Of a DNA stretch of 41,872 nucleotides, positions 3,848 through 18,974 are shown one piece after another. The DNA is taken from positions 1 through 41,872 of IMG/VR virus record IMGVR_UViG_3300038675_000167. One strand, 5' to 3'. The stretch's first letter is position 1. Each line of letters begins with the position of its first letter. This DNA comes from a virus. Its lineage: Duplodnaviria > Caudoviricetes. Under the pieces are notes generated by a model, which saw nothing but the letters and a program-made list of their open reading frames with translations, did not search any database and was not told where the DNA came from. A program made the translations under genes and the position numbers.

Positions 3848-4009
3848 TTATTCCGCGCCTTTGGGCATGCCTGTGATAATATATTTTTTGCCACAGTAGG
3901 GACAAAAGACAATATGCCCCTTCTCTTTTTTCTTATTAAGGGCGGGCAAGGTTTGGTCATAATGAAGCTTGAAAACTTTTTCACAAAAGATACATTTCAA
4001 AGTCACCAT
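3848..4009 (-). CDS. Small zinc-ribbon protein, 53 aa
   Basis: Manual translation MVTLKCIFCEK...FCPYCGKK...GAE*; two CxxC motifs; TAATG overlap with the upstream gene. Confidence 0.7.
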   Translation of the reverse strand: MVTLKCIFCEKVFKLHYDQTLPALNKKKEKGHIVFCPYCGKKYIITGMPKGAE

Positions 4010-4161
4010 TATTCTTCCACTTCCTTTCCCTTATGCTTGGGCGGCTTGCGGCGCTTGTCAGGAATCACCTTGGTCACAGGGGAGATTGCGCCCCAATCCT
4101 TACGAATACTGCGATAAACTTCGTAATTAGTGCGGGGTTTTGCTTTACTCTTTTTGCTCAT
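4009..4161 (-). CDS. Small basic protein, 50 aa
   Basis: Manual translation MSKKSKAKPRTNYEVYRSIRKDWGAISPVTKVIPDKRRKPPKHKGKEVEE*; RBS and promoter upstream. Confidence 0.7.
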   Translation of the reverse strand: MSKKSKAKPRTNYEVYRSIRKDWGAISPVTKVIPDKRRKPPKHKGKEVEE

Positions 4162-4262
4162 TTCTATCCCTCACTTTCAAATGTATTATAGCATGACTTG
4201 GACGAGAAGTCAATAAGAAAATTTAGATGTTAAACATCTAATGTAGGAAGGGCGCGAAGCCC

Positions 4263-4502
4263 TTACCCGGCAAAGTAATCATACTTATCCAGAATTTCGC
4301 ACATGGCTTTAACGATGGGATTTTCTTCTTCTTCCTCGTCTTCGTCCTCGTCTTCTTCCTCATGGCAATACAAGGTAGTAATCGCACGGGACAGTTCATC
4401 AACTTCTGCGGCGGTGGGGTTTTCAGAAGCGCACATGATGGTAATGGCATAGGCGATAGCGTCCATGATGCAGTAAGTAGTTTCAGCAGTAATCTTTTTC
4501 AT
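4263..4502 (-). CDS. Small acidic hypothetical protein
   Basis: Start moved to MKKITAE after RBS AGAAGGAG; EEEDEDEDEEEEE tract. Confidence 0.75.
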   Translation of the reverse strand: MKKITAETTYCIMDAIAYAITIMCASENPTAAEVDELSRAITTLYCHEEEDEDEDEEEEENPIVKAMCEILDKYDYFAG

Positions 4503-4621
4503 CCTAATTCTCCTTCTGGTTTTAAAGTGTTTTCCTTCACTTGATGGGTATAGTATAGCATATGTGAGAGAGAAAGTCAAGAATGTTATTTAGATGTTTA
4601 ACATCTAATAAAAGAAGGGGA

Positions 4622-4960
4622 TTACTCCCCTTCCTCCTTCTTCTTTTCTTCCCGCGCTTTCTTATCACGGGTAATCTTTTCTTCCTTGGCCTTTGCCTTT
4701 TCGGCCTTGGCGGCCTGCTTTTCGGTGTAGGCATCAATTTCAGTCTGCATCAGTTCGCGGGCGGTCATATCTTCGCGTTCTTCCGCAACAATGACGCCAA
4801 CACGGCAGTAACGCTCTACGCCGTTCTTATCGGTCAGGATAACGCCGTATTGACGGTCATTGATTTTCTGATAGGTAAGGCTGGCTTCTCCATTGATTAA
4901 ATCGCCGAAGATAGTCCCACGCAGGTCGGCATCCACAACGGTCTTAGAAATCTTAGGCAT
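4622..4960 (-). CDS. Hypothetical protein with Lys/Glu-rich C-terminal helix (probable paralog of 7386..7811)
   Basis: Own promoter, RBS and terminator; DKNGVERY vs DKEGNEKW and similar charged tail. Confidence 0.8.
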   Translation of the reverse strand: MPKISKTVVDADLRGTIFGDLINGEASLTYQKINDRQYGVILTDKNGVERYCRVGVIVAEEREDMTARELMQTEIDAYTEKQAAKAEKAKAKEEKITRDKKAREEKKKEEGE

Positions 4961-5094
4961 AATCTCATTCCTTTCTGGTTTGGTAGGTGTCCTTCCTATT
5001 TACAGATAGAGTATATCATAAAATAGGAAGGAAGTCAAGAATTGTTTTTAGATGTTAAACATCTAATTTGGAAAGGTTAGATCACTCTAACTTC

Positions 5095-5394
5095 TTACGC
5101 GGGTGTAAAACCATGTTGTAAAAACCATTTATAGCATACAAAGTCAGGAATTGATTCAAATTCTTTCAACATTTCATTATAAGCCTTAAGAAGATTTTTC
5201 TTTTTTTCTTTTGTATCAGCGTCATAAAATTTTTCAACGCCTTTATCATCCATACCCCAAGCGCAAAGAACAATATACGGAAAATGTCCATTATAAGTTA
5301 CTAAAGCTAATTTAAGTTTTATTTCATTATTGGGATAGTTAGGACACCAATCGTCTGTTACTTTAATCATTTTTTCAACTCGCTTAAAGCCCAT
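5095..5394 (-). CDS. Hypothetical protein
   Basis: Fills its cassette; RBS GGAAGGGGA; start ATG 5394 or TTG 5400. Confidence 0.75.
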   Translation of the reverse strand: MGFKRVEKMIKVTDDWCPNYPNNEIKLKLALVTYNGHFPYIVLCAWGMDDKGVEKFYDADTKEKKKNLLKAYNEMLKEFESIPDFVCYKWFLQHGFTPA

Positions 5395-5498
5395 TTTCAA
5401 ATTCCCCTTCCTTATTTTCTATATATATTATATCATACTATTTGAAAATTGTCAAATTATAATTTTAGATGTTAAACATCTAAATTAAAAAGGGAGAA

Positions 5499-5693
5499 TT
5501 ATTCTCCCATAATTTCTTCTGAAATATTCATCCAGTCAGAATATATTCTGTAAGAAAGGACATCTTCCGCTTCGATGAATCCGCCACAACAACCGCAAAT
5601 CACGCCGAGAAATTCAGAGTCATCAAAGACCCCAATTCCTCCAGTTTCTCCGATTTCAGGGTCATCAACAAAAGCAATCTGTTTATAAATCAT
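5499..5693 (-). CDS. Small acidic protein with ICGCCG motif
   Basis: Start MIYKQIAF after RBS GAGGAG within the upstream gene. Confidence 0.75.
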   Translation of the reverse strand: MIYKQIAFVDDPEIGETGGIGVFDDSEFLGVICGCCGGFIEAEDVLSYRIYSDWMNISEEIMGE

Positions 5694-5694
5694 T

Positions 5695-5883
5695 TTATTC
5701 CTCCTCTGATTCAATCGGGATAATACCGGCGCGGTTAAGAGTATATACACGATACATGTTGGACCTATGCCCGTGCTCGCACTTACAGTCCCACCACTGT
5801 TCCGCGCCTTCATCGGTGAAATTTTCTCCGAAATCTTCTACTTCAAATTCTTCACTACCACAGATAGAGCACTTTTCTTCCAT
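5695..5883 (-). CDS. Small zinc-finger-like protein
   Basis: CxxC ... CxCxH, 62 aa, acidic. Confidence 0.75.
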   Translation of the reverse strand: MEEKCSICGSEEFEVEDFGENFTDEGAEQWWDCKCEHGHRSNMYRVYTLNRAGIIPIESEEE

Positions 5884-5988
5884 TCCCTTTCAACTTCCTT
5901 TCCTTAATTTCATGTATATTATATCATATATCTTAAAGGATGTCAAATATGATTTTTAGATGTTAAACATCTAACATATAAATGCCTC

Positions 5989-6261
5989 TTACACCATAAG
6001 AGGCATTTCTTTTACTGAAATTTTAGCATAAGTTTCTTCTTTGAAAGTAGTTTGAGAAACGCTATCAATCCAAATATATAATTCGTGATGGCCGATTTGT
6101 TCTTCACGGTGGAAAACTAACTTACTATTATATGGCGGGTCAAATGTTCTTACTAAATCATGCGCGGCGGCAAAAGCTGTTTCAAAAGAAGCACAGGCCC
6201 AGTCAATAGTAGGCTTACATCCTTTGAGTTCACAAATTACAAGATAGATTTTTTCAGGCAT
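5989..6261 (-). CDS. Hypothetical protein
   Basis: Fills its cassette; RBS AAAGGAGAG. Confidence 0.75.
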   Translation of the reverse strand: MPEKIYLVICELKGCKPTIDWACASFETAFAAAHDLVRTFDPPYNSKLVFHREEQIGHHELYIWIDSVSQTTFKEETYAKISVKEMPLMV

Positions 6262-6386
6262 TTTTCTCTCTCCTTTCTTTCATATGTAGTATATCATAGA
6301 AAAGAAATAATGTCAATATGAATAATTAGATGTTTAACATCTAATTTCTTCCAAAAAAAGAAAACCGCCTTTCGGCGGTTCCCAGA

Positions 6387-6731
6387 TTATTTCAGACGGT
6401 AGGTGTTAGGCTTGCCCTCGATTTTGACAACCTTATCCGCCCAAGTATGGGTCATGCCATACTGCACCTTACCCTTGCCGAAACCTTCGGGAAGTTTTTC
6501 TTCGGCCTTGGCGTAGATGTCCGCAACGGTCAGGGGCGCGGTAGTACCGGAAAGCACTTCCTTCACGGCATCCCACGCGGTGGCGTATTCATCTTCCTTT
6601 GCGGCCTTCGCGGTGGCGTTCTTGGTGAGTTCGTCCTCGAATACCTGAATGACTTCCAGGCGTTCTTCTTCGGTATGGGTGGCGGTTCCAGTCAGGAGGT
6701 CATAGGCAGTACGGATAGTAGACAGTTTCAT
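6387..6731 (-). CDS. Putative winged-helix DNA-binding protein (paralog of 7982..8305)
   Basis: C-terminus PLTVADIYAKAEEKLPEGFGKGKVQYGM...VVKIEGKPNTY shows a helix-turn-helix plus wing pattern; fold is inferred. Confidence 0.65.
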   Translation of the reverse strand: MKLSTIRTAYDLLTGTATHTEEERLEVIQVFEDELTKNATAKAAKEDEYATAWDAVKEVLSGTTAPLTVADIYAKAEEKLPEGFGKGKVQYGMTHTWADKVVKIEGKPNTYRLK

Positions 6732-6835
6732 ATTTTTCTTCCTTTCTGGTTTGAAGGGTTTTCCTTCCCTTGATTACGGATTTATTATATCACAGTTTCG
6801 GGAAGTTGTCAAGAGTTTTTTTGAAAAATTTTTTT

Positions 6836-6945
6836 CGCAAGGGACTTGCAAGTGAGGTTTGTTACGGTCAGCGGCTCTTTCATTTACCACGTTGCGGGTC
6901 ACGGTCTGGCAAATCGGGCTGTGTTCTTTTCCTCTCCCTTGGAAC
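6836..6945 (-). ncRNA. Candidate structured small RNA 1
   Basis: Palindrome-linked promoter (-35 at 6980-6975) but no RBS-led ORF; transcript begins GUUCCAAGGGAGAGG; CAAGGGA/UCCCUUG closing stem and AUUUGCCA/UGGUAAAU internal stem. Confidence 0.4.
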
Positions 6946-7030
6946 AATTATATATTACCACAACTCTAAGAAAATGTCAATTATATATTTTAGATGTTAA
7001 ACATCTAAATAAAATAACCCGCTATGCGGG

Positions 7031-7285
7031 TTAATATTCGATGTCGATATATACGGTTTCACCAAACAGGTAGGGCGCTTCTTTTAAGATTACTTGGGAA
7101 ATTAAAATTTCTTCTTCTTCATAATCTTCATATTCATCAGGAGGAATCATATAGAGCCCAATAGAACAATCGGGGCCGGGAGTATATTGTTCGTTAAATG
7201 TTCCTTCAATGTCTTTCCCAAATTGTTCCTTAATTTTAGAGAATACTTCGTGTCCATCTACATGGGTATGAGTAGTAAGTTTCAT
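7031..7285 (-). CDS. Small acidic hypothetical protein
   Basis: Start MKLTTHT after AAAGGAAG; fills its cassette. Confidence 0.75.
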   Translation of the reverse strand: MKLTTHTHVDGHEVFSKIKEQFGKDIEGTFNEQYTPGPDCSIGLYMIPPDEYEDYEEEEILISQVILKEAPYLFGETVYIDIEY

Positions 7286-7385
7286 AAATCCACTTCCTTT
7301 CATTTGATGTATATAGTATAGCATAACAAAATTAAAATGTCAATCTCTAAAATTAGATGTTAAACATCTAAATAAAAAAGGGCGA

Positions 7386-7811
7386 TTACTCGCCCTTGCT
7401 CATATCAACTTTAACTTTTTTAAGTTCTTCAAGTGCGGCTTTCGCTTCACGCACTTTTTGCTTTTCTTCGCGCTTCTTTTCCTTTTCCTTTTCGGCGGCT
7501 TCTTTCTTCGCGGCGGATTTAGCTTTCTTCGCGGCGGCTTCCGCAAGGTCGGCGGCATAGTCATCTGCGGCGGCGTTACCATCAAAAGGAATATAACCGC
7601 CGTTACCATCACGGGTTCCACGCGGGGTCGCAACCTTAACGGTCGGCCACTTTTCATTTCCTTCTTTATCGACAAGCGGCAAAGTGATTTCACCGGAAGC
7701 GATGAAGCGGATTTGGGTTTCAGGGTCAAGGTCAAAGTGTTCAGACAGCGCATTGATTACGACTTCAAGAATCTCATTCCGCAGGGCGGTTTCAAGACTG
7801 GCTTTACTCAT
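7386..7811 (-). CDS. Hypothetical protein with Lys/Ala/Glu-rich C-terminus (probable paralog of 4622..4960)
   Basis: Start MSKASLE after GAGAGGAAG; stop in hairpin AAGGGCGA-TTAC-TCGCCCTT. Confidence 0.8.
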   Translation of the reverse strand: MSKASLETALRNEILEVVINALSEHFDLDPETQIRFIASGEITLPLVDKEGNEKWPTVKVATPRGTRDGNGGYIPFDGNAAADDYAADLAEAAAKKAKSAAKKEAAEKEKEKKREEKQKVREAKAALEELKKVKVDMSKGE

Positions 7812-7981
7812 TTTAGCACTTCCTCTCTTCAAGTTCATATAAAGTATATCATAAATTTGAAAAAATGTCAAGAGATATTTTTAGGAAAATTCAAAAAAAT
7901 TTTTATACAGAATTTTGTATATTTATGTGAAAATGAAATTAGATGTTTAACATCTAAATTTCCCCAAAGAGAAAAGAGGGC

Positions 7982-8305
7982 TTACGCCCTCTTATACTCA
8001 TTGACCTTGCCTTCGATTTTCACCACATCGGCGGCCCACAGTTCGCGCAGAGCATACTGAACCTTGCTCTTGGTCAGACCTTCGGGCACGGCGTCCTTCA
8101 CGGCTTCCCACAGTTCCGCAAGCGTCACGGGCTTGTCGGTCAGGGCACCGATAACCACTTCACGGGCGGCGGCATACAGTTCGCGGTTCGCCTGCGCCTT
8201 TTCGGCGTTCTTGTCGAGTTCGGCCTGGAGTTCGGCGTATTCGGCGGCGAGTTCGGGCACGTTCTTCAGGTAGTTAGCAATAGCGACCAGAGTGTTCTTC
8301 TTCAT
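7982..8305 (-). CDS. Putative winged-helix DNA-binding protein (paralog of 6387..6731)
   Basis: PVTLAELWEAVKDAVPEGLTKSKVQYAL...VVKIEGKVNEY aligns ungapped with the 6387 protein. Confidence 0.65.
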   Translation of the reverse strand: MKKNTLVAIANYLKNVPELAAEYAELQAELDKNAEKAQANRELYAAAREVVIGALTDKPVTLAELWEAVKDAVPEGLTKSKVQYALRELWAADVVKIEGKVNEYKRA

Positions 8306-8411
8306 AGGTTTTTCCCTTTCTGGTTTTTAGGACTTTTCCTTGTCCTTTTCATGTATACATTATAGCACGGTTTGTGCTTAATGTCAAGAGGTTTTGAAAA
8401 AATTTTTTCCC

Positions 8412-8475
8412 GTTCCTTGGGGAGATTTCCGTGGCTTTCACAGTCAAGGGCCTCTTTACCCTCTCCCCTTGGAAC
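8412..8475 (-). ncRNA. Candidate structured small RNA 2
   Basis: Own promoter (-35 ending 8509), no ORF; begins GUUCCAAGGGGAGAGG; GUUCC/GGAAC and GGGGAGA/UCUCCCC stems enclose two small hairpins. Confidence 0.4.
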
Positions 8476-8563
8476 AATTATAGTATATCACAAATCAGAA
8501 AAAAGTCAATAGTTTATTTTAGATGTTTAACATCTAATTCTCCGGGAAAGCGCTTTCGCGCTT

Positions 8564-9316
8564 TCATGTGGTGAAGGAGTAAAGACCGTTGCGGATGTAT
8601 TTTTTGGTATAGGTTCCTTTGTAGATTTCCTGACCATCAATTTTCACGGTCAAGGGGTGGTCGGTAACTCGCGGCAGGATTTTTTTCACTTTATATTCTG
8701 TCCCATAGGCCGCGCCACGCTTTACACATTCGAGCAAAATCACGCTTTCAATTTGCGTATCATATAGCCCCATGTGCTTTTCTTCAAAAGAAGTATCACC
8801 TATAATAAAGCGATATACAATTTCAGCACTGCCCTTGTAGTTTCCAGTATCTGTAAAATACTCGTTATCTTCACAAAATTTCTGGTAATCGGATTTACTG
8901 GTGATATATTCCGAAGCATAACCCCAAATATCATAAATACCAACATTTTCCAAGGGATTTATACATTTGAACCAATCGCAATTAAAAGTAAATACTTTAT
9001 CGTCAAAATCGCTATTGTAGGCATATGCTTCGGTAATGCCATACTTTTTAATATCCCGCATCATTTCCTGCATGACATAGCCCCATTTATTCATTTTTGC
9101 GCGGCGCTGGCGCATCAATTGAACGTATAAGGGGCGCTTCTCTTTATAGTAAGCACTTTCAAACAATGGCAGATTATGCCAGATTTGCTCAATGACAAAA
9201 TGCTTTTCAAGTTCTATCAATTCCGAATCAGTATTCAGAATGATATATCCGAGGTCGTAGCAGAAGGGCTTATCCAGTCCAGAAGTTTCAGTATCAAATA
9301 CCATGATATATCCCAC
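8564..9316 (-). CDS. DnaQ-like (DEDDh) 3'-5' exonuclease
   Basis: ExoI FDTETSG, ExoII AYNSDFD, ExoIII HMGLYD; GTG start. Confidence 0.85.
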   Translation of the reverse strand: MGYIMVFDTETSGLDKPFCYDLGYIILNTDSELIELEKHFVIEQIWHNLPLFESAYYKEKRPLYVQLMRQRRAKMNKWGYVMQEMMRDIKKYGITEAYAYNSDFDDKVFTFNCDWFKCINPLENVGIYDIWGYASEYITSKSDYQKFCEDNEYFTDTGNYKGSAEIVYRFIIGDTSFEEKHMGLYDTQIESVILLECVKRGAAYGTEYKVKKILPRVTDHPLTVKIDGQEIYKGTYTKKYIRNGLYSFTT

Positions 9317-9471
9317 AGTTTTTCCCTTTCTGGTTTTTTAGTGTTTTCCTTCACTTCTGATTGAATTATACCATAAGAAAAGCGAATTGTCAACATGAAA
9401 TTTTATACATTTTGTGAATAATTATGCGAGGGGCGGAAATTAGATGTTTAACATCTAAATAAAAAAGGGAA

Positions 9472-9948
9472 TTACGGTTCCCTTTCTTTAATAAGAAATA
9501 CAATCGGCCCGTCATACCTATGCGCCCATGTTCTAAACACATAATAATATTCGTGCCGGTAGATTTTGGAACCAGAACCACGTTTTTCATACCAGTTGCC
9601 ATTTTTTCCAATTTTCATATAATGAAAATCGCTATCTTCACCCATCATTTCATAACGGAAAGCAACAATTTCATATTTTTTATAATCAATAGAACGATTA
9701 AAGACTTCATCATTTGATACTACGGTATAGCCAAGGTCTTTGCGCATATAATTTACCGCAGTTTTTGTTGCGGCTTCATAGCACTCATTGTCTAACAACA
9801 ATCTAACATTTTCATAATCTTCCCAGCTCCTTGTTGGAACATACCATTTGAAAAGATTAAACGCATAGCCACCGCAATTATACACACCCTTTGGCGTATT
9901 ACGGATTGTAGGATTCTGGGCGTAGCAGTATCCAGTAGTTTCAAACAT
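9472..9948 (-). CDS. Hypothetical protein, possible papain-like Cys-His hydrolase
   Basis: YNCGGYAF ... DFHYM ... WYEKRG pattern; function inferred. Confidence 0.55.
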   Translation of the reverse strand: MFETTGYCYAQNPTIRNTPKGVYNCGGYAFNLFKWYVPTRSWEDYENVRLLLDNECYEAATKTAVNYMRKDLGYTVVSNDEVFNRSIDYKKYEIVAFRYEMMGEDSDFHYMKIGKNGNWYEKRGSGSKIYRHEYYYVFRTWAHRYDGPIVFLIKEREP

Positions 9949-10044
9949 AATTCATACCCCCTTTTTCATATGTATTATAACATAGGAGGTAAGAAAAGTC
10001 AACTGTGATATTTAGATGTTTAACATCTAAATAAGAAGAAGGCG

Positions 10045-10299
10045 TTAGCCCTCTTGTATTCTCTTTTTAAGTTCTTCGGCAATTTGTTTTTTGGCGTCAT
10101 AGGTCATGGTATAAGAATCTTCATCATCAAGCCCCTTCGCCCATTCGCGCACGGCAGCAAGGCACATTTTATCAATATCCGCGCCGAAAGGGTCGGTATA
10201 ATTGCGTTTTATATAGTTAATTTCATCTTTCATCATTTCAAATTCATAATCACCAAGAAACAAAGTATGTTCAGAAGTCCAAGTAACCGTCATATCCAT
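10045..10299 (-). CDS. Hypothetical protein
   Basis: Fills its cassette; conserved leader motif. Confidence 0.75.
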   Translation of the reverse strand: MDMTVTWTSEHTLFLGDYEFEMMKDEINYIKRNYTDPFGADIDKMCLAAVREWAKGLDDEDSYTMTYDAKKQIAEELKKRIQEG

Positions 10300-10420
10300 T
10301 TTAATACTCCCTTCTGGTTTTTTAAGTGTTGTCCTTCACTTGATGATTATATTATATCACATAATCTTAAAATGTCAATCTTGACTTTTAGATGTTTAAC
10401 ATCTAAATAAATCGAGGAGA

Positions 10421-10639
10421 TTAATCTCCCCAAAATTCATCATCATCCAACATATTTTTAGTAATAATAGCGAAGATTTTTTTAAGAGTGCCCCCAGGTA
10501 CGGTGTCAACATCACCGCCATCGAGATAGTCGCTCAGTTTGCTGGTAAAGGCGTCATAAATATCCTGCTCAAGATAGTTTTGGGAATATTCATCAAGCTC
10601 GATGGTTTTAGTATAAGTTACTTCAATCGGTTCTTTCAT
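10421..10639 (-). CDS. Small acidic hypothetical protein
   Basis: Fills its cassette; conserved leader motif. Confidence 0.75.
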   Translation of the reverse strand: MKEPIEVTYTKTIELDEYSQNYLEQDIYDAFTSKLSDYLDGGDVDTVPGGTLKKIFAIITKNMLDDDEFWGD

Positions 10640-10763
10640 ATTTATTCCCTTTCTGGTTTTAGGAAGTTTTCCTTCTTCTTTCTTACGGGATTATTATATC
10701 ATAAAATAAAATGAAATGCAAGTTTTATTTTTAGATGTTTAACATCTAATTCTAAAAGGGTGA

Positions 10764-11213
10764 TTACTCACCCCTCAAAAGTTCTTTCAAGACTTCCAAA
10801 ATCTGGTTTGGTTCATACGCTTCGCCTTTCCATTCTTCACGGTTCCGCGCTTCATCGTCAAACAGAATATCGTTTTCATTTTCCATGAAAGACGATTTAG
10901 GCGTGCCGTAGGCCACGATGCGGATGGCGTCCCAGCTCACCGACCGCAAATGCTTTCTCAACCATACCAACTTCGCGGCGGTCACAGCTTCATCAAACTG
11001 CGGTGTCGGCTCTTTGGAAAGCCAGCTAATAATTCCGATTTGATAGCCAACTTCCCGCAGGCGGTTTAGATAGCGGGCGAGCAGGCTCATATTCAGCATG
11101 GCCGCAGCTTCTGCATAGGGCGTAGGGTCATACGCCCGGAGCATGGGGAGCCAATTTTCTACCGCGTATAAATTCGCAAGAGTGCCGTCAAGGTCAAACC
11201 AAATCGTTTTCAT
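10764..11213 (-). CDS. HAD-superfamily phosphatase (5'(3')-deoxyribonucleotidase-like)
   Basis: Motif I FDLDGTL, motif II IISW, Lys, motif IV LFDD; start MKTIWF. Confidence 0.8.
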   Translation of the reverse strand: MKTIWFDLDGTLANLYAVENWLPMLRAYDPTPYAEAAAMLNMSLLARYLNRLREVGYQIGIISWLSKEPTPQFDEAVTAAKLVWLRKHLRSVSWDAIRIVAYGTPKSSFMENENDILFDDEARNREEWKGEAYEPNQILEVLKELLRGE

Positions 11214-11327
11214 CTTCTTTCCATCCTTTCCTTTCTTACGGGTATAGTATATCATAGAATGATGAAGAAGTCAAGGGAAGGTTTTAGATGTTTAACATCT
11301 AAAATGTTAATAGGGCCGAAGCCCTAT

Positions 11328-11534
11328 TTATCGACTGACAATGGCAACAATGCCAACTACCAGAAGCCAAATGATTGCGATTACAATAACTAAAGCAATC
11401 GGAATCCAGAATGGCGCGAGAACCCATACCCAAGCCCAATCAATGACCCCTACAAGTTTAAGTACAAGAAATACAACGCCAAGCACCGTAGTTAAGGAGC
11501 AACCAGAGGTTACGACCGTTTTCTTTTCTTCCAT
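11328..11534 (-). CDS. Small membrane protein with two hydrophobic segments
   Basis: LKLVGVIDWAWVWVLAPFWI motif typical of small phage membrane proteins. Confidence 0.8.
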   Translation of the reverse strand: MEEKKTVVTSGCSLTTVLGVVFLVLKLVGVIDWAWVWVLAPFWIPIALVIVIAIIWLLVVGIVAIVSR

Positions 11535-11661
11535 TTCTTTTCTCCTTCTGGTTTTAGGAGTTTTCCTTCTCCTTTTTATTTACAAATAGATTATAGCATA
11601 AGAAAATGAAATTGTCAATTATAATTATTAGATGTTTAACATCTAAATATAAAAGCAAGTC

Positions 11662-12060
11662 TTAGACTTGCTTTGAGTAAAAACACCATTTTTCATTGAA
11701 AATATATTCAAGTGTAAAGCCTTCTTTTTCTAATGTATGCCGCATTGCTCCATTAGTAATCCACGGGGTCGCGCCGATTTTTTCTTCATTATATTGATTG
11801 CTGATGTGTTCAATCATTTGCTGGGCATATCCTTTGCCCCGATAATCCGGGTCAACATATAGCCGTTTCATTGCGGTATAATTATAATAAGGCTCTGGGA
11901 CAGCGGCGCAAGTGGAAACAATTTTATCAGCTTCTACTCCAATATACAGGCGTCCAGCCTGAATATCGCTCATTAAAAGTAAAGAGGAAATATATGGAAT
12001 ATTGGTATCAATGGTTCTAACTTCTTCCATATCATTAACGGTTGCCAATCTGATTTCCAT
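11662..12060 (-). CDS. GNAT-family N-acetyltransferase
   Basis: IRLAT start; motif A LYVDPDYRGKGYA; motif B N.AM...EKEGF. Confidence 0.88.
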   Translation of the reverse strand: MEIRLATVNDMEEVRTIDTNIPYISSLLLMSDIQAGRLYIGVEADKIVSTCAAVPEPYYNYTAMKRLYVDPDYRGKGYAQQMIEHISNQYNEEKIGATPWITNGAMRHTLEKEGFTLEYIFNEKWCFYSKQV

Positions 12061-12164
12061 ATAGGGTCACCTTTCCTTTCAATTTACAAATATATATTAT
12101 CATATTGTAATATAAAAGTCAAGAATGAAATTTAGATGTTTAACATCTAAACAAAAAGGCGGCG

Positions 12165-12437
12165 TTAAGGCCGCTCGCTACAAAGAATAACATTGGAATA
12201 ATGTGTCAAATAGGTGATGCCATTCATGGTAAATTGGACACAATCGGAATCATCGAAATCACGCCAGCTCGTGACTTCGCCTTCCAGCAGCTCACCGTTC
12301 CCCAGCTGTACAATCGCCCATTTAAATGACCAGTTCGTATCAATGAGCTGGCGATTATAGCCGCATCCCGTCAAGCAGAAAGAGCCCAGGATTACCAGAA
12401 CGACCGCGAGAATAGCAACTTTCTTCTTCATCTTCAT
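12165..12437 (-). CDS. Predicted lipoprotein
   Basis: Basic N-terminus, hydrophobic stretch, lipobox LTGC. Confidence 0.8.
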   Translation of the reverse strand: MKMKKKVAILAVVLVILGSFCLTGCGYNRQLIDTNWSFKWAIVQLGNGELLEGEVTSWRDFDDSDCVQFTMNGITYLTHYSNVILCSERP

Positions 12438-12531
12438 TACTCCCTTCTTTTTTACAAACATAGTATATCATATATAAATAAAAATGTCAACTTAAAGAAT
12501 TAGATGTTTAACATCTAATAATAAAGGCTCC

Positions 12532-12723
12532 TTACGAAGCCTGTTCAATGGACTTGCGCGTCCAGTCCAGCGGGAAAGTCTTATCTTCAATGTCTACTAC
12601 CAGCAGCCCTACACACTCCTGGTCTTGAATGTAAATCTGCGCGGCGGCAAGCACCTGGGCGAAGGAATCGCAAGTTTCACTCTTACTAAATCCATCATCA
12701 TAGGTAGAAATCAAAGTATACAT
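12532..12723 (-). CDS. Hypothetical protein
   Basis: Fills its cassette. Confidence 0.7.
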   Translation of the reverse strand: MYTLISTYDDGFSKSETCDSFAQVLAAAQIYIQDQECVGLLVVDIEDKTFPLDWTRKSIEQAS

Positions 12724-12830
12724 TCAATTCATCCCCTTTCTTTTTACAATAAGAGTATAGCATATAGGAGAAGAAAAGTCAAGAATGTGTTTTAGATGTT
12801 AAACATCTAAATTATATGCGGTTTCCCGCA

Positions 12831-13055
12831 TTATTCAATTCCAAGATGCGCGGCTGCTACACCGCTCTCGTATCCTTCTTCCCGTCCGAATTTAAGACCT
12901 AAATACATCCCGGCGTTATGCCCTTGAAGATAGGCAAGGTGCATTTTGTTGATTATCTGCGTGGAAGGGCGCTCTTCATCATACATTTTCTCCATGAATT
13001 TTACAAAACCAAAATCAAAACCTTGTTCGCGCAAATCTTCGTACATTTCGTTCAA
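12831..13055 (-). CDS. Hypothetical protein
   Basis: Fills its cassette; GxxxG repeats near the C-terminus. Confidence 0.7.
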   Translation of the reverse strand: MNEMYEDLREQGFDFGFVKFMEKMYDEERPSTQIINKMHLAYLQGHNAGMYLGLKFGREEGYESGVAAAHLGIE

Positions 13056-13150
13056 CTCCTTTCTTTTTTACAAGTAAAGTATATCATAAAAGAGAGAAGA
13101 AGTCAATATATAATTTTAGATGTTTAACATCTAAAATATAGATTTGGGCA

Positions 13151-13456
13151 TTATGCCCAAATCGTTTTTCCATGGTTCGTATATTTTGACTGGTTATGAT
13201 TTACTTTCTTTTTCAGATAGGTGGGGATTTTTTTCTCCCCAGCGAATACAGCGACCAGCTCGCTATAAGTTGTGATATACATTGTTATGATTGTTTGCTT
13301 ATCAGCGGATTTTACAATGGTTACGCCAGTATCGGTGATGCAGGTATAGCAGCCCCTGTAAAACTTTTCCCTTACAATCTGCCCGATACCAATTTTTGTC
13401 AAGATTTTTTCGACCCGTTCGGCCCTCTCTACTTCGCAATGATAACTCATAGTCAT
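13151..13456 (-). CDS. Hypothetical protein
   Basis: Fills its cassette; stop in hairpin GATTTGGGCA-TTA-TGCCCAAATC. Confidence 0.75.
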   Translation of the reverse strand: MTMSYHCEVERAERVEKILTKIGIGQIVREKFYRGCYTCITDTGVTIVKSADKQTIITMYITTYSELVAVFAGEKKIPTYLKKKVNHNQSKYTNHGKTIWA

Positions 13457-13562
13457 GGTGAACTACTTCCTTTCTTCTTTGATGGATACATTATAGCACA
13501 AAAGAAGGAAAAAAGCAAGTCAAGATTTTAGATGTTTAACATCTAAATAAAAAAGGTGGTTT

Positions 13563-13859
13563 TTACCACCGTATTAGTATTACAAGAGGAGCACACTGAG
13601 ACCATTCTGCATGGAAGCCGCTTTCTCTCAATTCTTCTATAACGTAATTCCCGGAAAAGTCTGGCATGGGGAGGTCAATTTTATCTAAATAAAACTTCAA
13701 CCCAATTGTAATTTTACGCCAGCCTTTCGATGCAGTTTCTTTTATATTATCTTCAATAATTTCCATAAGAGTTTTATGTTTTCTCTGAATTTCTTTTTTA
13801 CACAGCAGCGCGGAGGCTTCGGAGTATTTAAGGGCATCTGCGGCAGTAATGTTCATCAT
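13563..13859 (-). CDS. Hypothetical protein (paralog of 14574..14858)
   Basis: ITAADA...IEDNIK.A...GF.AEW...IRW pattern shared. Confidence 0.75.
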   Translation of the reverse strand: MMNITAADALKYSEASALLCKKEIQRKHKTLMEIIEDNIKETASKGWRKITIGLKFYLDKIDLPMPDFSGNYVIEELRESGFHAEWSQCAPLVILIRW

Positions 13860-13979
13860 ACGGGCGTCCTTTCTGGTTTTAAGGATTTTCCTTTCCTTTT
13901 CATTTATATTATATCATATTAAAATGAAATGTCAATAATTATATTTAGATGTTTAACATCTAATCAATAGGGGTAAGGG

Positions 13980-14198
13980 TCATGCCCTTACATATCCATT
14001 CTCTCCCTGGTATTTCCAAGCAAGAATAACTTCATTTCCCTTGTGGTCATATGAAACAATATGGAAGCTTCTTTTCCCTGGATGCGCCAGCTCCTCGAAA
14101 ATAATAGCGTTCTCCGTCCTGCCTACCACCTTGATAGCGAAAGAAGAAGTATACAGCGCGGGCCAGATGTAGACTTTACCAACTTCAAACTTTTTCAT
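13980..14198 (-). CDS. Hypothetical protein
   Basis: Start MKKFEVGKVY after AAGGAGAG. Confidence 0.75.
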   Translation of the reverse strand: MKKFEVGKVYIWPALYTSSFAIKVVGRTENAIIFEELAHPGKRSFHIVSYDHKGNEVILAWKYQGENGYVRA

Positions 14199-14307
14199 CT
14201 TGTTCTCTCCTTTTCTATTTCCTTGGGACAATTATATATTATCATATTAAGTAAAAAATGTCAAGTAGAGTATTTAGATGTTTAACATCTAAAATATAAA
14301 TGCACGA

Positions 14308-14457
14308 TTATTCATCGTGCAACGCTTTCCATTTTTTCATTGCTTCTTCATAGGAACGGGAGTAGAAAATAGTTCTTTGGACGAACTCATTTGTGTTTTC
14401 ATAAATGGCCCAAAAAACGCCGTAAATGTTGTGAATCCGTTCAAGAGTATATTTCAT
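14308..14457 (-). CDS. Small hypothetical protein
   Basis: Start MKYTLER after GGAGGTG. Confidence 0.7.
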   Translation of the reverse strand: MKYTLERIHNIYGVFWAIYENTNEFVQRTIFYSRSYEEAMKKWKALHDE

Positions 14458-14573
14458 GGTTACACCTCCATTTATTTTGTGTTCCTTTGAACAACTATAT
14501 AATAACATAGATAGACAAAGTTGTCAATAGCTGTTATTAGATGTTTAACATCTAATTTTAAAGTTAAGTGGTT

Positions 14574-14858
14574 TTACCACTTAACAAAAAGCACATAATC
14601 GAACCATTGTGCGCTAAAACCATTTTTTTGAACGGAGGTTGCAATATAGTTTTTTGCCATAGTCATATCGGGAAAACCGCTATTGACCATATAAGCGCGA
14701 AGTCCGATATGATTTTCTCGCATTGCATAAGCCGCAGCTCCGCGAATATCACTTTCAATTCTATCAAGAATTGGTTCAGCTTTTTCCATTGTTTCTTTCG
14801 CGTAAGTAAGCGTTGCGGCACGGGCAATATCTCTGGCTTCTTCGGCGGTAATCTTCAT
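14574..14858 (-). CDS. Hypothetical protein (paralog of 13563..13859)
   Basis: Start MKITAEEA; ends GFSAQW...VKW. Confidence 0.75.
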   Translation of the reverse strand: MKITAEEARDIARAATLTYAKETMEKAEPILDRIESDIRGAAAYAMRENHIGLRAYMVNSGFPDMTMAKNYIATSVQKNGFSAQWFDYVLFVKW

Positions 14859-14977
14859 AACAAATCCCCTTTCTGGTTTTAGGCTTCCTTCCCTTTCATT
14901 ACAAATAGAGTATATCATATAAAAATAAAGTTGTCAATATCTATTATTAGATGTTTAACATCTAAATAAATGACCCC

Positions 14978-15220
14978 TCATCCGAGGGGTGTAAGGGCAA
15001 GCAATTCGACATCTTTTGGAAGATCGCTGTCAATATATGTTGCTTTTCGACTTTCTGGCTCAAATTGTACCATGACCGCCCCGGTTGACATGTCCAGCAC
15101 ATCAGTAGGGAAGCCGTAGCTTTCTGTAATCGCGCGAGCTTTGAACACTGCGACCCAAAGAGAATGGAAGCAATAGTTGAAAATCACGGGTTTATCGTTG
15201 TAGTAATTGATTTGATACAT
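14978..15220 (-). CDS. Hypothetical protein
   Basis: Start MYQINYY after GGGAGGG. Confidence 0.7.
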   Translation of the reverse strand: MYQINYYNDKPVIFNYCFHSLWVAVFKARAITESYGFPTDVLDMSTGAVMVQFEPESRKATYIDSDLPKDVELLALTPLG

Positions 15221-15320
15221 TCGTAACCCTCCCTTCAATTTCATATATATAATAACACAATAATGATAAAAAGTCAAGAAGGATTTTTAGATGTTAAACA
15301 TCTAATTTACAAAAGAGCGC

Positions 15321-15596
15321 TCATCGCGCTCTCCATGTCTTACAGAAAAGTAGTGTTCTGTAAGTTATTTTATTAGAAGCCTGCTCGACCTTAATTGAAA
15401 CATCTTCGCCGTGTCGCTGTAAGAACTTAACAGCTTTTGCCAGCGCTCTGTTTGCTTCTTTAATATCGTCAATATTGCGGTAGTAGCAATGTTCCAGCTG
15501 TGTGATATAGTAACGGCTTTCATGGGCATAGAGGAACTGTCCCTCATAGTAAACAAATTCCACCTTGTAAAGATACGTCGGATAATAGTTCTTCAT
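15321..15596 (-). CDS. Hypothetical protein
   Basis: RBS GGGAGGT; fills its cassette. Confidence 0.75.
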   Translation of the reverse strand: MKNYYPTYLYKVEFVYYEGQFLYAHESRYYITQLEHCYYRNIDDIKEANRALAKAVKFLQRHGEDVSIKVEQASNKITYRTLLFCKTWRAR

Positions 15597-15697
15597 GGTC
15601 TTACCTCCCTTTCTTTTATGGTCATATTATACCATGAGTATGAGAAAATGTCAATCTATGTTTTTAGATGTTTAACATCTAAATTATAAAAGGGCGG

Positions 15698-15940
15698 TTA
15701 TTCATCCGCCCTTTCCAATACTTCTTCTTCGGTAATATCCAAACCGCACATTCCAAATACTTCATCAGCATGAAACCAGAACAGATCGTTCAAGTCGTCT
15801 TCGGCCAAGCCATCAGGATACAGCTCTTCCAGCGCAGCTTCGATGGTGTCCCATTCTTCATTGGTCAGCTTACGGGCGACGTCCGCCGCACCCATCCAGA
15901 ACTCAAAGTCACGAATCCGAACTTCACTTTTAATAGTCAT
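15698..15940 (-). CDS. Small acidic hypothetical protein
   Basis: FEFWMGA...LEELYPDG...LNDLFWF; fills its cassette. Confidence 0.8.
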   Translation of the reverse strand: MTIKSEVRIRDFEFWMGAADVARKLTNEEWDTIEAALEELYPDGLAEDDLNDLFWFHADEVFGMCGLDITEEEVLERADE

Positions 15941-16309
15941 TGTCTTTTCCCTCTTTCTTTTTATTCTTTGTCCCCTTCGGACAACTATATATTATCATAA
16001 GGAAAGGAAAAAGTCAAGTATTGTTTTTAGATGTTTAACATCTAAAAAGTAAAAATAAAAATAGGCGGTCACGTTCACCGCCTATCTTGGCTCAATCATC
16101 CCCAACTTCGCCACGACTGAGAATGGGAGAATACCCTCCGTTAATTAGCCGCCGCACAAGGTATTTTGTGCGCTGGCTTACTCTAACCGGGTGGCGTTTC
16201 CATTTTCAACCCTCCCTCTTTCCTTTCGACGTGTATAGTATAGCACAAAATGAAATTAAAGTCAATACGATATTTTAGATGTTTAACATCTAAATTAAAA
16301 GGGGCTGAG

Positions 16310-16525
16310 TTATTTCAACTCAACCCATTCGGGATTTCTCCACCCGTTTTTCAATTGCCATACAGTCCAATCTTCGGCCTTGACAACAAATGTTTCATCG
16401 TTCTTTTTAATCACAAAATTGCCATAGATATTACAAGTGATGGAAGTAAATACCAGTTCGGGCATTTTTTGCTTGATTATTTGAAGCACCTTCCCGAAGT
16501 CCTGAATTGTTGCTATACTGTTCAT
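16310..16525 (-). CDS. Hypothetical protein
   Basis: Start MNSIATIQ after AAGGGAG. Confidence 0.7.
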   Translation of the reverse strand: MNSIATIQDFGKVLQIIKQKMPELVFTSITCNIYGNFVIKKNDETFVVKAEDWTVWQLKNGWRNPEWVELK

Positions 16526-16639
16526 GTTTATTCTCCCTTCTTGTATCGTTCCTTGGAACAATTATATTATATAAGAAAAAAGAGAAAAGTCAAGGGATAA
16601 TTTTAGATGTTTAACATCTAAATCATAAAGGTGTATTGT

Positions 16640-16945
16640 TTAGCAATACACCAAAGACATATTAGACCATTTAAAGACTGAGATTTGATGGTATTTTTTT
16701 CCAATCTCCAAAGCTTCGCGTTTGGTTTTTACGCGGAAGCTGTGGTCAATATACCATACACCTTTTTCATACCAAACGCCGCAAGTCCCATTATACTTTT
16801 GCACAGCTTGTGCAACCTCCGCAGCTGTCCGGCACTCGACGCCGCAATCCGCAACTTGCCAGCCCGTTTTGTAGGTGATAGAATTATACTTTTTAAGAGT
16901 GAGCCCGTCAGATTCGCGCAGGGACATGATTTGGTCTAACAACAT
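16640..16945 (-). CDS. Hypothetical protein
   Basis: RBS GGGAGG; fills its cassette. Confidence 0.75.
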   Translation of the reverse strand: MLLDQIMSLRESDGLTLKKYNSITYKTGWQVADCGVECRTAAEVAQAVQKYNGTCGVWYEKGVWYIDHSFRVKTKREALEIGKKYHQISVFKWSNMSLVYC

Positions 16946-17054
16946 TGTTTTGTCCTCCCTTCATTTTCTGATTGTATTATAACATGGAAAATGAAAAAAG
17001 TCAATACTGATTTTTAGATGTTTAACATCTAAAAAAATAAAGGCGCAAATGCGC

Positions 17055-17117
17055 CTATCGTGGATAAACCCAACCAATCACCCATGCCACAAACAGAACA
17101 GTTACGATAATTTCCAT
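17055..17117 (-). CDS. 20-aa hydrophobic peptide (ends at TAG under the standard code)
   Basis: MEIIVTVLFVAWVIGWVYPR with its own promoter, RBS AAGGGG and terminator AGGCGC-AAAT-GCGCCT. Confidence 0.55.
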   Translation of the reverse strand: MEIIVTVLFVAWVIGWVYPR

Positions 17118-17238
17118 GCGCCCAACCCCTTTCTTTATTGTGACTATATTGTAACATATTATTAAAGAAAAATCAATACTTATTTTTAGATGTTTAACAT
17201 CTAAAAGTATGAAGGAAAAGAAGAAGTTTTCTTCTTCC

Positions 17239-17520
17239 TTAAAACCTAAACCCACAACGTTCTAACTTGTGAAACGCCTTGTCTTCATCATCACAAGGGT
17301 GGAAAGCATGCGGTTCTTCGCCTTCTGGAAAGATTTGCCAACCGACGCAAATGGTAAGGTCTTCATCGGCATAGTAGATGCGAGCATTGTCGCCCAAGAT
17401 ATTTACCAGCTCTTCAAAGTAGCAGCTCGCAGCTTGCATGCAGCTCGCAGCTCGTGTGCAGCTCCCAGCTTGCAGCTCGCCTACGCGTGCGCGCGTGGTA
17501 TCAGTGGTAATAGACTCCAT
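17239..17520 (-). CDS. Hypothetical protein containing a CAGCT-repeat tract
   Basis: Start MESITT after GGAGG; hairpin after the stop. Confidence 0.55.
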   Translation of the reverse strand: MESITTDTTRARVGELQAGSCTRAASCMQAASCYFEELVNILGDNARIYYADEDLTICVGWQIFPEGEEPHAFHPCDDEDKAFHKLERCGFRF

Positions 17521-17604
17521 AGTGTGATCCTCCTTCCAATTTTTGGCATGTACAATCTGGTGACCGGATTTGACAATGGCGAATCTGGAACCAGAATCGA
17601 CATT

Positions 17605-17642
17605 TGTTACGGAATTGTTACAATTGTAACATTTTTGTAACA
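17605..17642. promoter_or_regulatory. Two OmpR-family (WalR-like) direct-repeat boxes
   Basis: TGTTAC-GGAAT-TGTTAC (17605-17621) and TGTAAC-ATTTT-TGTAAC (17625-17641) both fit TGTWAH-N5-TGTWAH. Confidence 0.5.
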
Positions 17643-17791
17643 CTCTTATCCCCTCCCTTTGCTTATATGGTAACATAAAGCGCCCAGATTGTCAAGTTTT
17701 CGGTTTAGATGTTGAACATCTGGCAATATTTGGTCGTTTTTTCGCCAAATAATACATGTAAATGTTACAAAAATATTAAGTTTGTAACATT

Positions 17792-17965
17792 TTAGCACTC
17801 CACCGTTTCAAGTGCTAAAAAGTTAGATACGTCTAACATTTTAGCACTCAATGCCTAAGAGTGCTAACAAGTTAGATATACTTAACCCGTTAGCACTCAC
17901 CCGCGTAGAGTGCTAACAAGTTAGAAGCATCTAACATTTTAGCACTCTGACTGCGCGAGTGCTAA
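17792..17965. promoter_or_regulatory. Four tandem CIRCE (HrcA operator) elements at 49-bp period
   Basis: TTAGCACTC-N9-GAGTGCTAA at 17841, 17890 and 17939 (perfect) and 17792 (one mismatch); all N9 spacers differ. Confidence 0.92.
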
Positions 17966-18007
17966 ATGTTACAAAATTATTAAATCTTAAAAAAGGGCAA
18001 AAAAGTA

Positions 18008-18036
18008 TTGATTTTTACAATCCATTTTGATATAAT
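18008..18036 (+). promoter_or_regulatory. sigmaA-type promoter
   Basis: TTGATT, 17 bp, TG-extended TATAAT. Confidence 0.7.
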
Positions 18037-18103
18037 TGCATTGCGCAAGCGAAAAGCAAGCGCGAAAAAAGCAAGGCCGCAAGGCCAGAAAGAAGGTTAT
18101 AAC

Positions 18104-18712
18104 ATGAAACTAACCAAACAGCAGGAACAAGCCCTTGTCCTTTGCGCCGAAAAGCGCTTGCCTATGCTTCGCGCCGAATTGCTGAAAAATTCTACCGGAT
18201 TTGTGGGAAAATTCGCGGAAGAATTTAGATTGATTCTAAACAAAAAACCGCGTGATATTCTCAACTGCCGGGCCGCCAACCGGGTGGACGTTCGCCTTGG
18301 CCGCTCGGTTGGTATAGAAATTAAAACCGGTTCCGGCGCCGTGGCCTACGCGGAAGGGCGTTTACCGTTTACTACGGAAGATATTATACCGGAAAACATT
18401 TTGCCCGGTGTGCGGTTCGTCCTGTGGTTGCCTTTCCCGTCTATCTTTTTGCAGGAAATTGCAAAAATAGAAAACGGCTTGCAGGCGCAAAAAGTGCTTG
18501 AAACAATGCTAAAAAATTCCTTCCTTTTCACCCGTGAACAATTTCTTGACATGCTGGAAAGCATTGGAAAAAATGGCCTTCGCTCTTCCGTAAAGGTGAG
18601 CAAGCAAGGCGGACAGTTGAACATTCAAACAATTTCCGCGAAAATGGAAAGCCGCCTTTGGGATTATTTGGAAAATATCCCTAATGGGTATGACGCGCTG
18701 ATTGAAAAATAA
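18104..18712 (+). CDS. Putative PD-(D/E)xK nuclease-fold protein, 202 aa
   Basis: Start MKLTKQQ after AGAAGG; GKFAE...VDV...IEIKTG fits the E..D..ExK catalytic pattern; fold is inferred. Confidence 0.55.
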   Translation: MKLTKQQEQALVLCAEKRLPMLRAELLKNSTGFVGKFAEEFRLILNKKPRDILNCRAANRVDVRLGRSVGIEIKTGSGAVAYAEGRLPFTTEDIIPENILPGVRFVLWLPFPSIFLQEIAKIENGLQAQKVLETMLKNSFLFTREQFLDMLESIGKNGLRSSVKVSKQGGQLNIQTISAKMESRLWDYLENIPNGYDALIEK

Positions 18713-18779
18713 AGCGAAAAAGGGAAGGGGAAAATCTTTTCCCCTTCCCGAAAAAAGAAAAAGAAAGGAATGAAAAAAA

Positions 18780-18974
18780 ATGTTTACTGTTTATAATCTG
18801 TTATCCGGTGAAGCGCTCACCTTTTCCCATTTTGGCGCGGCCGCGAAGCATGTTATAAAAGCCCTTGACAATATGGCAAAAAATTGCCCAATGGCCTTAC
18901 TTGACGCAAGGGAAGAAAACGACGGCGTGGTTTTTGAGATATGGGAAGGGTCACAAATTATTATGCGCAAGTAA
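18780..18974 (+). CDS. Small hypothetical protein
   Basis: RBS AAAGGA, 64 aa, followed by a terminator. Confidence 0.7.
   Translation: MFTVYNLLSGEALTFSHFGAAAKHVIKALDNMAKNCPMALLDAREENDGVVFEIWEGSQIIMRK

What the first reader, a model, noticed from the sequence alone, without database searches (positions are those of the whole stretch)
17792..17965. Four tandem CIRCE operators in a phage: candidate DNA sponge for the host HrcA repressor
Seen: TTAGCACTC-N9-GAGTGCTAA four times at exact 49-bp spacing, with conserved arms and different spacers, indicating selection for protein binding. Known: CIRCE/HrcA represses groESL and dnaK operons, usually with one or two copies at the promoter. Here there is no chaperone gene and the sites lie upstream of, not over, the flanking divergent promoters (17695 and 18008). 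Inference: replicating phage DNA titrates HrcA to induce host chaperones for virion folding, or the phage senses host heat stress. I know of no described phage CIRCE array.
Basis: partly seen in the sequence, partly recalled or inferred. Interest (0 to 1): 0.9.

Follow-up and report, generated by a model that had tools for sequence, protein, structure and literature searches.

The report
Phage docking pad for host repressors
A large gut-type bacterial virus carries four copies of the DNA site recognised by its host's heat-shock repressor HrcA, in a gene-free slot that related viruses fill with other host repressor sites, and it likely uses them as decoys that would switch on the host's protein-folding machinery.

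Summary
Observation confirmed: three perfect CIRCE operators plus one with a single mismatch, at an exact 49-bp period (arms 97% alike, spacers 22%), separated by a second, phage-type palindrome. The window is a TAG-recoded phage related to 140-190 kb Clostridia-type phages; GroEL, GroES, HSP70, HSP20 and HrcA genes were not found in the near-complete relatives searched. The same gene-free slot in relatives holds swappable tandem boxes: CIRCE, CtsR, ArsR (both tied to host ctsR/arsR genes here), LacI-like and eight DnaA boxes. CIRCE is patchy (5 of 43 terminase-recruited relatives) yet always 3.4-7.2 kb upstream of terminase, also in lineages ~35% identical. Contig depth doubles over ~2-19 kb, suggesting a long terminal repeat with the array ~1 kb inside one end. 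Best reading (0.4): a decoy pad that titrates host repressors, here inducing chaperones. Rivals: physical coat, insulator or anchor at the genome end (0.3); stress-sensing control of flanking promoters (0.2). Binding and function are untested. No paper found; this scan noted similar CIRCE clusters twice on other DNA.

The parts
17792..17818 (.). CIRCE copy 1 (one mismatch in the right arm)
17841..17867 (.). CIRCE copy 2, perfect
17890..17916 (.). CIRCE copy 3, perfect
17939..17965 (.). CIRCE copy 4, perfect
17822..17837 (.). Linker palindrome GTTAGA-N4-TCTAAC 1; a box of this phage family (also at 5076 and 19104), rare in host genomes; binding protein unknown
17871..17886 (.). Linker palindrome 2 (two mismatches)
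17920..17935 (.). Linker palindrome 3
17763..17789 (.). TGTTACA and TGTAACA boxes on the left flank; a matching TGTTACA lies at 17967-17973 on the right flank
17605..17642 (.). TGTWAH-N5-TGTWAH direct repeats (WalR-like by recalled consensus) in the leader of the first leftward transcript; conserved anchor of the slot in close relatives
17667..17695 (-). Leftward sigma70-type promoter-like site heading the early mini-gene array
17707..17721 (.). AGATGTT-N-AACATCT box, one of 36 in the early array, most of them just upstream of a promoter
18008..18036 (+). Rightward sigma70-type promoter-like site
18104..18712 (+). 202-aa protein, likely PD-(D/E)XK nuclease fold (invariant D62, E72, K74; best structural matches are restriction endonucleases, Z 5.9, weak)
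2100..18900 (.). Likely long direct terminal repeat (boundaries approximate, inferred from a two-fold contig-depth plateau in one run) holding the early array and the CIRCE slot

Best explanation
The four CIRCE sites are the HrcA-type filling of a swappable, gene-free pad of protein-binding boxes between the phage's early and late halves, and they likely act as a decoy that would soak up the host's HrcA and so lift repression of its chaperone genes. Steps: (1) shown: four consensus operators with fixed arms and free spacers, no chaperone gene or overlapped canonical promoter in cis; (2) shown: relatives fill the same slot with 1-2 CIRCE and/or CtsR, ArsR, LacI-like, DnaA and unassigned boxes; (3) inferred from depth: the slot lies in a ~17-kb terminal repeat, so a virion carries 8 CIRCE against a median of 2 per host chromosome, and it is among the first DNA to enter; (4) inferred: host HrcA binds them; (5) inferred: as genomes replicate the decoys outnumber HrcA, groESL and hrcA-grpE-dnaK are derepressed just when virion proteins must fold; (6) inferred: other fillings tune other host regulons (CtsR proteases, metal, sugar, replication initiation) in other hosts.
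For: Arms fixed, spacers free in the window and in 17 CIRCE copies from 10 of 14 hand-picked slots (arm columns 16-17/17, spacer columns 6-9/17). Site spacings of 37, 49, 51 and 68 bp show no common helical phase, as expected for independent sites and not a fixed complex. In two near-complete relatives CIRCE occurs only in this slot. No GroEL or GroES in 5 of 5, HSP70 in 5 of 5, HSP20 in 12 of 12, HrcA in 3 of 3 phage records. Both heat-shock repressors' boxes sit side by side in two distinct slots (L159, L214); the CtsR box occurs in 24 of 31 host-order genomes and precedes ctsR or hrcA in 4 of 7 genes tested, and the ArsR box precedes arsR or heavy-metal genes in 5 of 8 tested. Host load is small: median 2 CIRCE per genome. 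No tyrosine integrase (0 of 5), resolvase, ParA or ParM-like (0 of 12 each) or tubulin (0 of 5), so a lytic life with high copy number is likely. Depth about 12.5-13 versus 5-7.
Against: Only 5 of 43 terminase-recruited relatives with >=5 kb upstream carry CIRCE, and the near-complete CIRCE-less relatives searched have no chaperone genes either: chaperone induction is dispensable. A decoy should work anywhere, yet CIRCE stays 3.4-7.2 kb upstream of terminase even in lineages ~35% identical. The slot is shared with boxes that are not enriched in host genomes (GTTAG-N6-CTAAC in 5 of 101; ACTTTA-N6-TAAAGT no commoner than its control), which cannot titrate a known host factor. Unfolded proteins already switch HrcA off through GroE (titration model, PMC6032397 passage), which lessens the gain. 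Whether host genes are still transcribed late in infection is unknown (36 early promoters and a likely nuclease lie alongside). The host is assigned only by MAG binning.
Confidence: 0.4

Rival explanations
1. Physical pad: any tight-binding protein already present in the cell is recruited to the first-entering end of the linear genome, as a coat against end-attacking nucleases, an anchor or ratchet during injection, or an insulator between the two divergent promoters; the identity of the repressor is secondary.
For: Position is conserved while content is not. The two-fold depth plateau puts the slot about 1 kb inside a likely terminal-repeat end. Box clusters also occur at the far end of the early array in distant relatives (Rex-like, parS-like, TGTATACA). 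Host-type boxes alternate with phage-family boxes. One relative has 8 DnaA boxes in the slot, like the eight DnaA boxes in the T5 terminal-repeat injection-stop region (bioRxiv 10.1101/866236, an in-silico hypothesis). A cultured distant relative (Kirov, terminase 30%) has fixed terminal repeats with its left end 23 kb upstream of terminase.
Against: The depth evidence is one run, possibly the source sample, with one figure per contig. The window's own far end has no host-type box by my patterns. CIRCE and CtsR boxes pair up, which points to a proteostasis theme. Some relatives show no cluster with my patterns (L141, L165, L186).
Confidence: 0.3
2. Cis sensor: HrcA (and in relatives CtsR, Rex, ArsR) bound here tunes the flanking promoters, or the weak promoters embedded in the CIRCEs, so that early transcription or the nuclease gene follows the host's stress state, as Spo0A boxes do on phi29.
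For: The slot is the early/late divergence point. CIRCE is usually the last box before the rightward promoter. Three TG-extended promoter-like matches overlap copies 1, 2 and 4 on the minus strand. In a distant lineage single CIRCEs sit between a terminator and the next small gene (L015, L103, L110, L329). Precedent: phi29 (PMC2731898, abstract and passages).
Against: Neither canonical promoter is overlapped; the gap to the rightward -35 varies from about 25 to 80 bp among relatives (read by eye). The embedded matches score only 9 of 12 and follow from the CIRCE arm itself. No lysogeny machinery found that such a switch would serve.
Confidence: 0.2
3. Replication origin with iterons, a structured RNA or cruciform, or a neutral amplified remnant of a captured host promoter.
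For: Cumulative GC skew has its minimum here. The array can fold into one long hairpin (-93 kcal/mol, z -14.7). One relative has DnaA boxes in the slot.
Against: The skew follows gene strand. The fold follows from the palindromes; the spacers are not complementary across the array. No Rfam match. Content differs between phages 98% identical in terminase. A likelier origin lies at 1983-2900, AT-rich and beside a helicase-like gene. Arms stay invariant while spacers randomise, which is not neutral decay.
Confidence: 0.1

Closest known systems
CIRCE/HrcA class I heat-shock regulation (consensus as in PMC3842655, passages read)
   Same: Identical 9-9-9 inverted repeat; candidate host order carries the same site and hrcA.
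   Different: On a phage, four in tandem, no chaperone operon downstream, canonical promoters not overlapped, interleaved with a phage-family palindrome.
Bacillus phage phi29/Nf parS sites and Spo0A boxes (PMC2731898, abstract and passages)
   Same: A lytic phage carries sites for host DNA-binding proteins near its early/late promoter region and DNA ends.
   Different: Those sites overlap promoters and origins, act in cis and are conserved; here they overlap no canonical promoter, bind stress repressors and are swapped between close relatives.
T5 injection-stop region with eight DnaA boxes (bioRxiv 10.1101/866236; abstract, first sections and passages; in-silico hypothesis)
   Same: Non-coding, repeat-rich region near one boundary of a long terminal repeat, bearing host-protein boxes; one relative here has 8 DnaA boxes.
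   Different: The T5 arrangement is fixed across 25 phages; this slot is hypervariable, and two-step injection is not known for this phage.
Operator titration: datA for DnaA, multicopy lacO, synthetic transcription-factor decoys (recalled, not from a call)
   Same: Extra copies of a binding site pull a low-abundance regulator off its targets.
   Different: Chromosomal or engineered; a natural phage decoy array for HrcA was not found in my searches.

Membership tests
CIRCE operator | TTAGCACTC-N9-GAGTGCTAA consensus | tested here: met
   3 exact, 1 with one mismatch
CIRCE operator | Host lineage encodes HrcA and uses the same site | tested here: inconclusive
   Met for the Acutalibacteraceae bins that hold relatives and 147 of 151 genomes of their order, but the true host is assigned only by binning
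CIRCE operator | Bound by HrcA | not testable with these tools
   Needs EMSA or ChIP
CIRCE/HrcA regulon member | Lies in the promoter of a groE or dnaK operon | tested here: not met
   Flanked by small early genes and a likely nuclease; no chaperone families in relatives
phi29-type cis control by a host regulator | Sites overlap the regulated promoter or origin | tested here: inconclusive
   Canonical promoters are 42 and 96 bp away; three weak embedded matches overlap the CIRCEs
T5 injection-stop region | Lies in a long terminal repeat near its boundary | tested here: inconclusive
   Two-fold contig-depth plateau in one run; no read ends available
T5 injection-stop region | Conserved DnaA-box and inverted-repeat layout | tested here: not met
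   No DnaA box in the window's slot; content differs between relatives
Operator-titration decoy | Extra sites derepress the host regulon in trans | not testable with these tools
   Needs expression data
CRISPR or mini-CRISPR array | Repeats separated by unique spacers of about 20-70 nt | tested here: not met
   Variable part is only 9 nt inside a palindrome; no Rfam match

The most novel reading that the evidence does not exclude
A family of large gut phages keeps a plug-and-play DNA decoy panel at the leading end of the genome: a non-coding cassette loaded, by module exchange, with operators for whichever host repressors are worth titrating (HrcA, CtsR, Rex, ArsR, LacI-type, DnaA), reprogramming host physiology with no phage protein at all. 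This window is the fullest HrcA version seen here.
Probability: 0.35. Interest if true: 0.88.

Novelty: new variant of a known kind. Interest (0 to 1): 0.72.

Why it matters
Host takeover is normally credited to phage proteins or RNAs. If these boxes titrate repressors, naked phage DNA is itself the effector, and chaperone-less large phages of Firmicutes have a route to more GroEL in hosts that lack sigma32. If the pad is physical, it gives a tractable handle on how a linear genome end is protected or held during injection, the open question around T5's injection stop. Either way a 200-bp fragment and a laboratory host make it directly testable, and the relatives supply a natural series of swapped fillings.

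Tried and rejected
Two perfect CIRCEs 15-35 bp apart in IMG/VR: 0 hits. Of 120 single-CIRCE viral loci, 12 had two CIRCE-like sites and none three. Linker as a host operator: found in 5 of 101 host-order genomes, 8 of the 13 sites on one phage-like contig: rejected for those genomes. ACTTTA-N6-TAAAGT and TATATTTGATMAAATATA (11 of 51) could not be tied to hosts. parS in the window, G001 or G002: none convincing. Polar AAGCTG clusters as Chi sites: not over-represented in 320 kb sampled from one host-order genome; the Chi paper read (10.1101/2020.08.13.249359, passages) gave no clostridial motif in what I saw. Rfam and tRNA scans: nothing. DNA similarity of the slot to GenBank phages: only chance hits. 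Foldseek on the neighbouring protein: no match at E<=0.001; PHROGs and Pfam: none. Transcription: no RNA holder listed. The terminase tree is the quick version; the careful search did not finish. The CtsR pattern with one mismatch can hit ordinary -35 regions, so the 25 of 43 relatives with any host-type box is a soft count; the CIRCE count (5 of 43) is firm. Patterns other than CIRCE, CtsR and DnaA were recalled or drawn after seeing the slots, so their shuffle contrasts are inflated. Literature searches (listings and abstract starts only) showed no paper on phage-borne CIRCE or phage DNA decoys for host repressors; most subscription journals are outside the library, and I read no supplements.

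Full report
Observation. The window holds four CIRCE elements at 17792, 17841, 17890 and 17939, 49 bp apart. Three are perfect and the first has one mismatch. No shuffle of 100 gave a match. Arms are 97% identical between copies, the 9-bp spacers 22%, the linkers 70%, the pattern expected of selection for a protein that reads the arms. Each linker carries a second palindrome, GTTAGA-N4-TCTAAC. Two good sigma70-type promoter-like sites diverge from the array, 96 bp to the left and 42 bp to the right, and three weaker TG-extended matches overlap the CIRCEs on the minus strand.

The element. Reading TAG as Gln restores long genes to the right of the array: a sigma-factor-like gene, terminase, portal and structural genes. 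To the left lie small genes, most built as terminator, AGATGTT-N-AACATCT box, promoter, ribosome site; the box occurs 36 times between 2896 and 17721. The terminase recruits 77 IMG/VR loci at 66-98% identity, the longest on contigs of 140-190 kb, and three MAG contigs, two binned as Acutalibacteraceae. Cultured phages match at 36% or less. In near-complete relatives I found no GroEL or GroES (0 of 5 each), HSP70 (0 of 5), HSP20 (0 of 12), HrcA (0 of 3), tyrosine integrase (0 of 5), resolvase, ParA or ParM-like (0 of 12 each) or tubulin (0 of 5). The gene right of the array has invariant D62, E72 and K74; its confident model matches restriction endonucleases best but weakly (Z 5.9, rmsd 4.8, 139 aligned), so a PD-(D/E)XK nuclease is likely, not shown.

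The host side. Both bins that hold relatives encode HrcA with a CIRCE in the same locus (perfect in G006), and one also has a CtsR box there. CIRCE with at most one mismatch occurs in 147 of 151 genomes of that order, median 2 per genome. The consensus and the CtsR heptad are as given in PMC3842655 (passages). The host itself is known only from binning.

The slot is swappable. Relatives keep the flanks but change the filling. In 14 slots picked by anchor motif and by eye: the window has 4 CIRCE; L121, 98% identical in terminase, has 2 CIRCE behind six CTTTA-N6-TAAAG boxes; L159 and L214 alternate CIRCE with CtsR boxes; L174 has three LacI-like boxes and 2 CIRCE; L191, L198, L205 and L217 have an ArsR-type box and one CIRCE, three of them with TGTATACA repeats; L134, L152 and L182 lack CIRCE; L181 has 8 DnaA boxes. 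Over 17 CIRCE copies arm columns are 16-17/17 invariant and spacer columns 6-9/17. Two of the other boxes are host operators by context: the ArsR-type box is in 11 of 31 host-order genomes and precedes arsR or heavy-metal genes in 5 of 8 tested; the CtsR box is in 24 of 31 and precedes ctsR or hrcA in 4 of 7 tested. LacI, Rex, WalR and parS labels are recalled consensus. The linker box and CTTTA-N6-TAAAG are not enriched in host genomes and probably belong to phage proteins. In two near-complete relatives CIRCE occurs only in this slot, as do all CtsR hits in G001 and all LacI-like hits in G002.

How common, and where. Without picking, 5 of 43 terminase-recruited loci with at least 5 kb upstream carry CIRCE (near-duplicates included); on a quick terminase tree of 51 rows the label needs 9 changes, at least 6 forced by well-supported branches. 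It is accessory and exchanged. Yet position is kept. Of 10 further CIRCE-bearing contigs (chosen by eye from 15 printed of 120), 8 encode a homologous terminase at 34-76% identity, with CIRCE 3.4-7.2 kb upstream of it, at or near the point where early and late promoters diverge. Some add Rex-like boxes. No locus had more than two CIRCE-like sites among 120, so four is the largest array seen here.

A likely terminal repeat. In run X1, possibly the source sample, contig depth is 4.8-5.2 at 1-768, 12.3-13.1 from 761 to 18138, 8.0 on the next contig and 5.3-7.0 beyond. A two-fold plateau with steps at both sides fits a long direct terminal repeat; mixing estimates put its ends near 2.1-2.5 kb and 18.7-19.2 kb, both in or near non-coding DNA. 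Depth is one figure per contig and the evidence is a single run, so this is an inference. A cultured distant relative, Kirov, has fixed 284-bp repeats with its left end 23 kb upstream of terminase (PMC10454425, passages). If right, each virion carries eight CIRCE, four of them about 1 kb from a physical end.

Mechanism. I commit, at 0.4, to a decoy. Binding selection without a target gene, tandem amplification, lack of helical phasing (37, 49, 51, 68 bp), pairing of the two heat-shock repressors' boxes, a small host load and a chaperone-less, likely lytic phage all fit titration that grows with replication. Binding, titration and benefit are all inferred. Against it: most relatives do without CIRCE; position should not matter for a decoy but is conserved; the slot is shared with non-host boxes; and unfolded proteins already inactivate HrcA through GroE (PMC6032397, passage). 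A physical role at the genome end (0.3) explains constant place with variable content and echoes the eight DnaA boxes of T5's terminal repeat (10.1101/866236, an untested hypothesis). A cis stress sensor like Spo0A on phi29 (0.2; PMC2731898) fits the place at the early/late switch and the single CIRCEs between terminator and gene in one distant lineage, but no canonical promoter is overlapped. Origin, RNA or neutral readings get 0.1.

Novelty. Host-factor sites on phage DNA are known (phi29, T5), so this is a new variant of a known kind. An orphan HrcA array, and a swappable cassette of host repressor operators, did not appear in five literature searches (listings only). This scan's notes record CIRCE clusters on other phage DNA twice; these are unchecked AI notes, not support.

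Noticed in passing
window 2896-17721: 36 copies of AGATGTT-N-AACATCT, most about 10 bp upstream of a near-consensus sigma70 promoter and just after a terminator, heading single small genes; other relatives use pairs of GTTAG-N6-CTAAC in the same place. The binding protein is unknown; the array may also act as an RNA polymerase sink.
   Followed up: partly
window 589-1983 and 19174-41872: TAG read as Gln (table 15) restores the helicase-like, terminase, portal and tape-measure genes, while the early small genes are open under table 11; two distant relatives have TGA inside terminase instead.
   Followed up: partly
window 2304-2780 and 17407-17473: Two clusters of seven CAGCT(T/C) motifs, all on one strand, near both ends of the early array; similar clusters in G001 and G002. 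Not supported as Chi in one host-order genome; unexplained.
   Followed up: partly
window 1983-2900: AT-rich non-coding stretch with palindromes beside a helicase-like gene; candidate origin and likely inner boundary of the terminal repeat.
   Followed up: no
L065 / L333 (G003) 12042-13930 and 1189-1310: Eleven Rex-like TTGTGAA-N4-TTCACAA boxes, several just upstream of the first early promoters, with two CIRCE, and a parS-like palindrome at the far end of the early array.
   Followed up: partly
L015, L103, L110, L329: CIRCE extended by 5-7 bp of extra palindrome, placed between a terminator hairpin and the next small gene, twice per locus 350-430 bp apart.
   Followed up: no
L181 4325-4700: Eight DnaA boxes in the same slot, no CIRCE: datA-like sink or DnaA-dependent origin.
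   Followed up: no
L227 1500-1530 and L208 1500-1530: The TGTTAC-N5-TGTTAC-ATTGTAAC anchor motif also occurs just downstream of what looks like a bacterial dnaA gene in an oriC-like region.
   Followed up: no
G006 contigs C11, C77, C85, C144, C176: One bacterial bin holds several phage-like contigs with these box clusters, so its CIRCE count of 6 includes phage sites and the bin is a weak host call.
   Followed up: partly
window 41840-41872: The window ends in what looks like an Illumina adapter (recalled), so the last bases are probably an assembly artefact.
   Followed up: no
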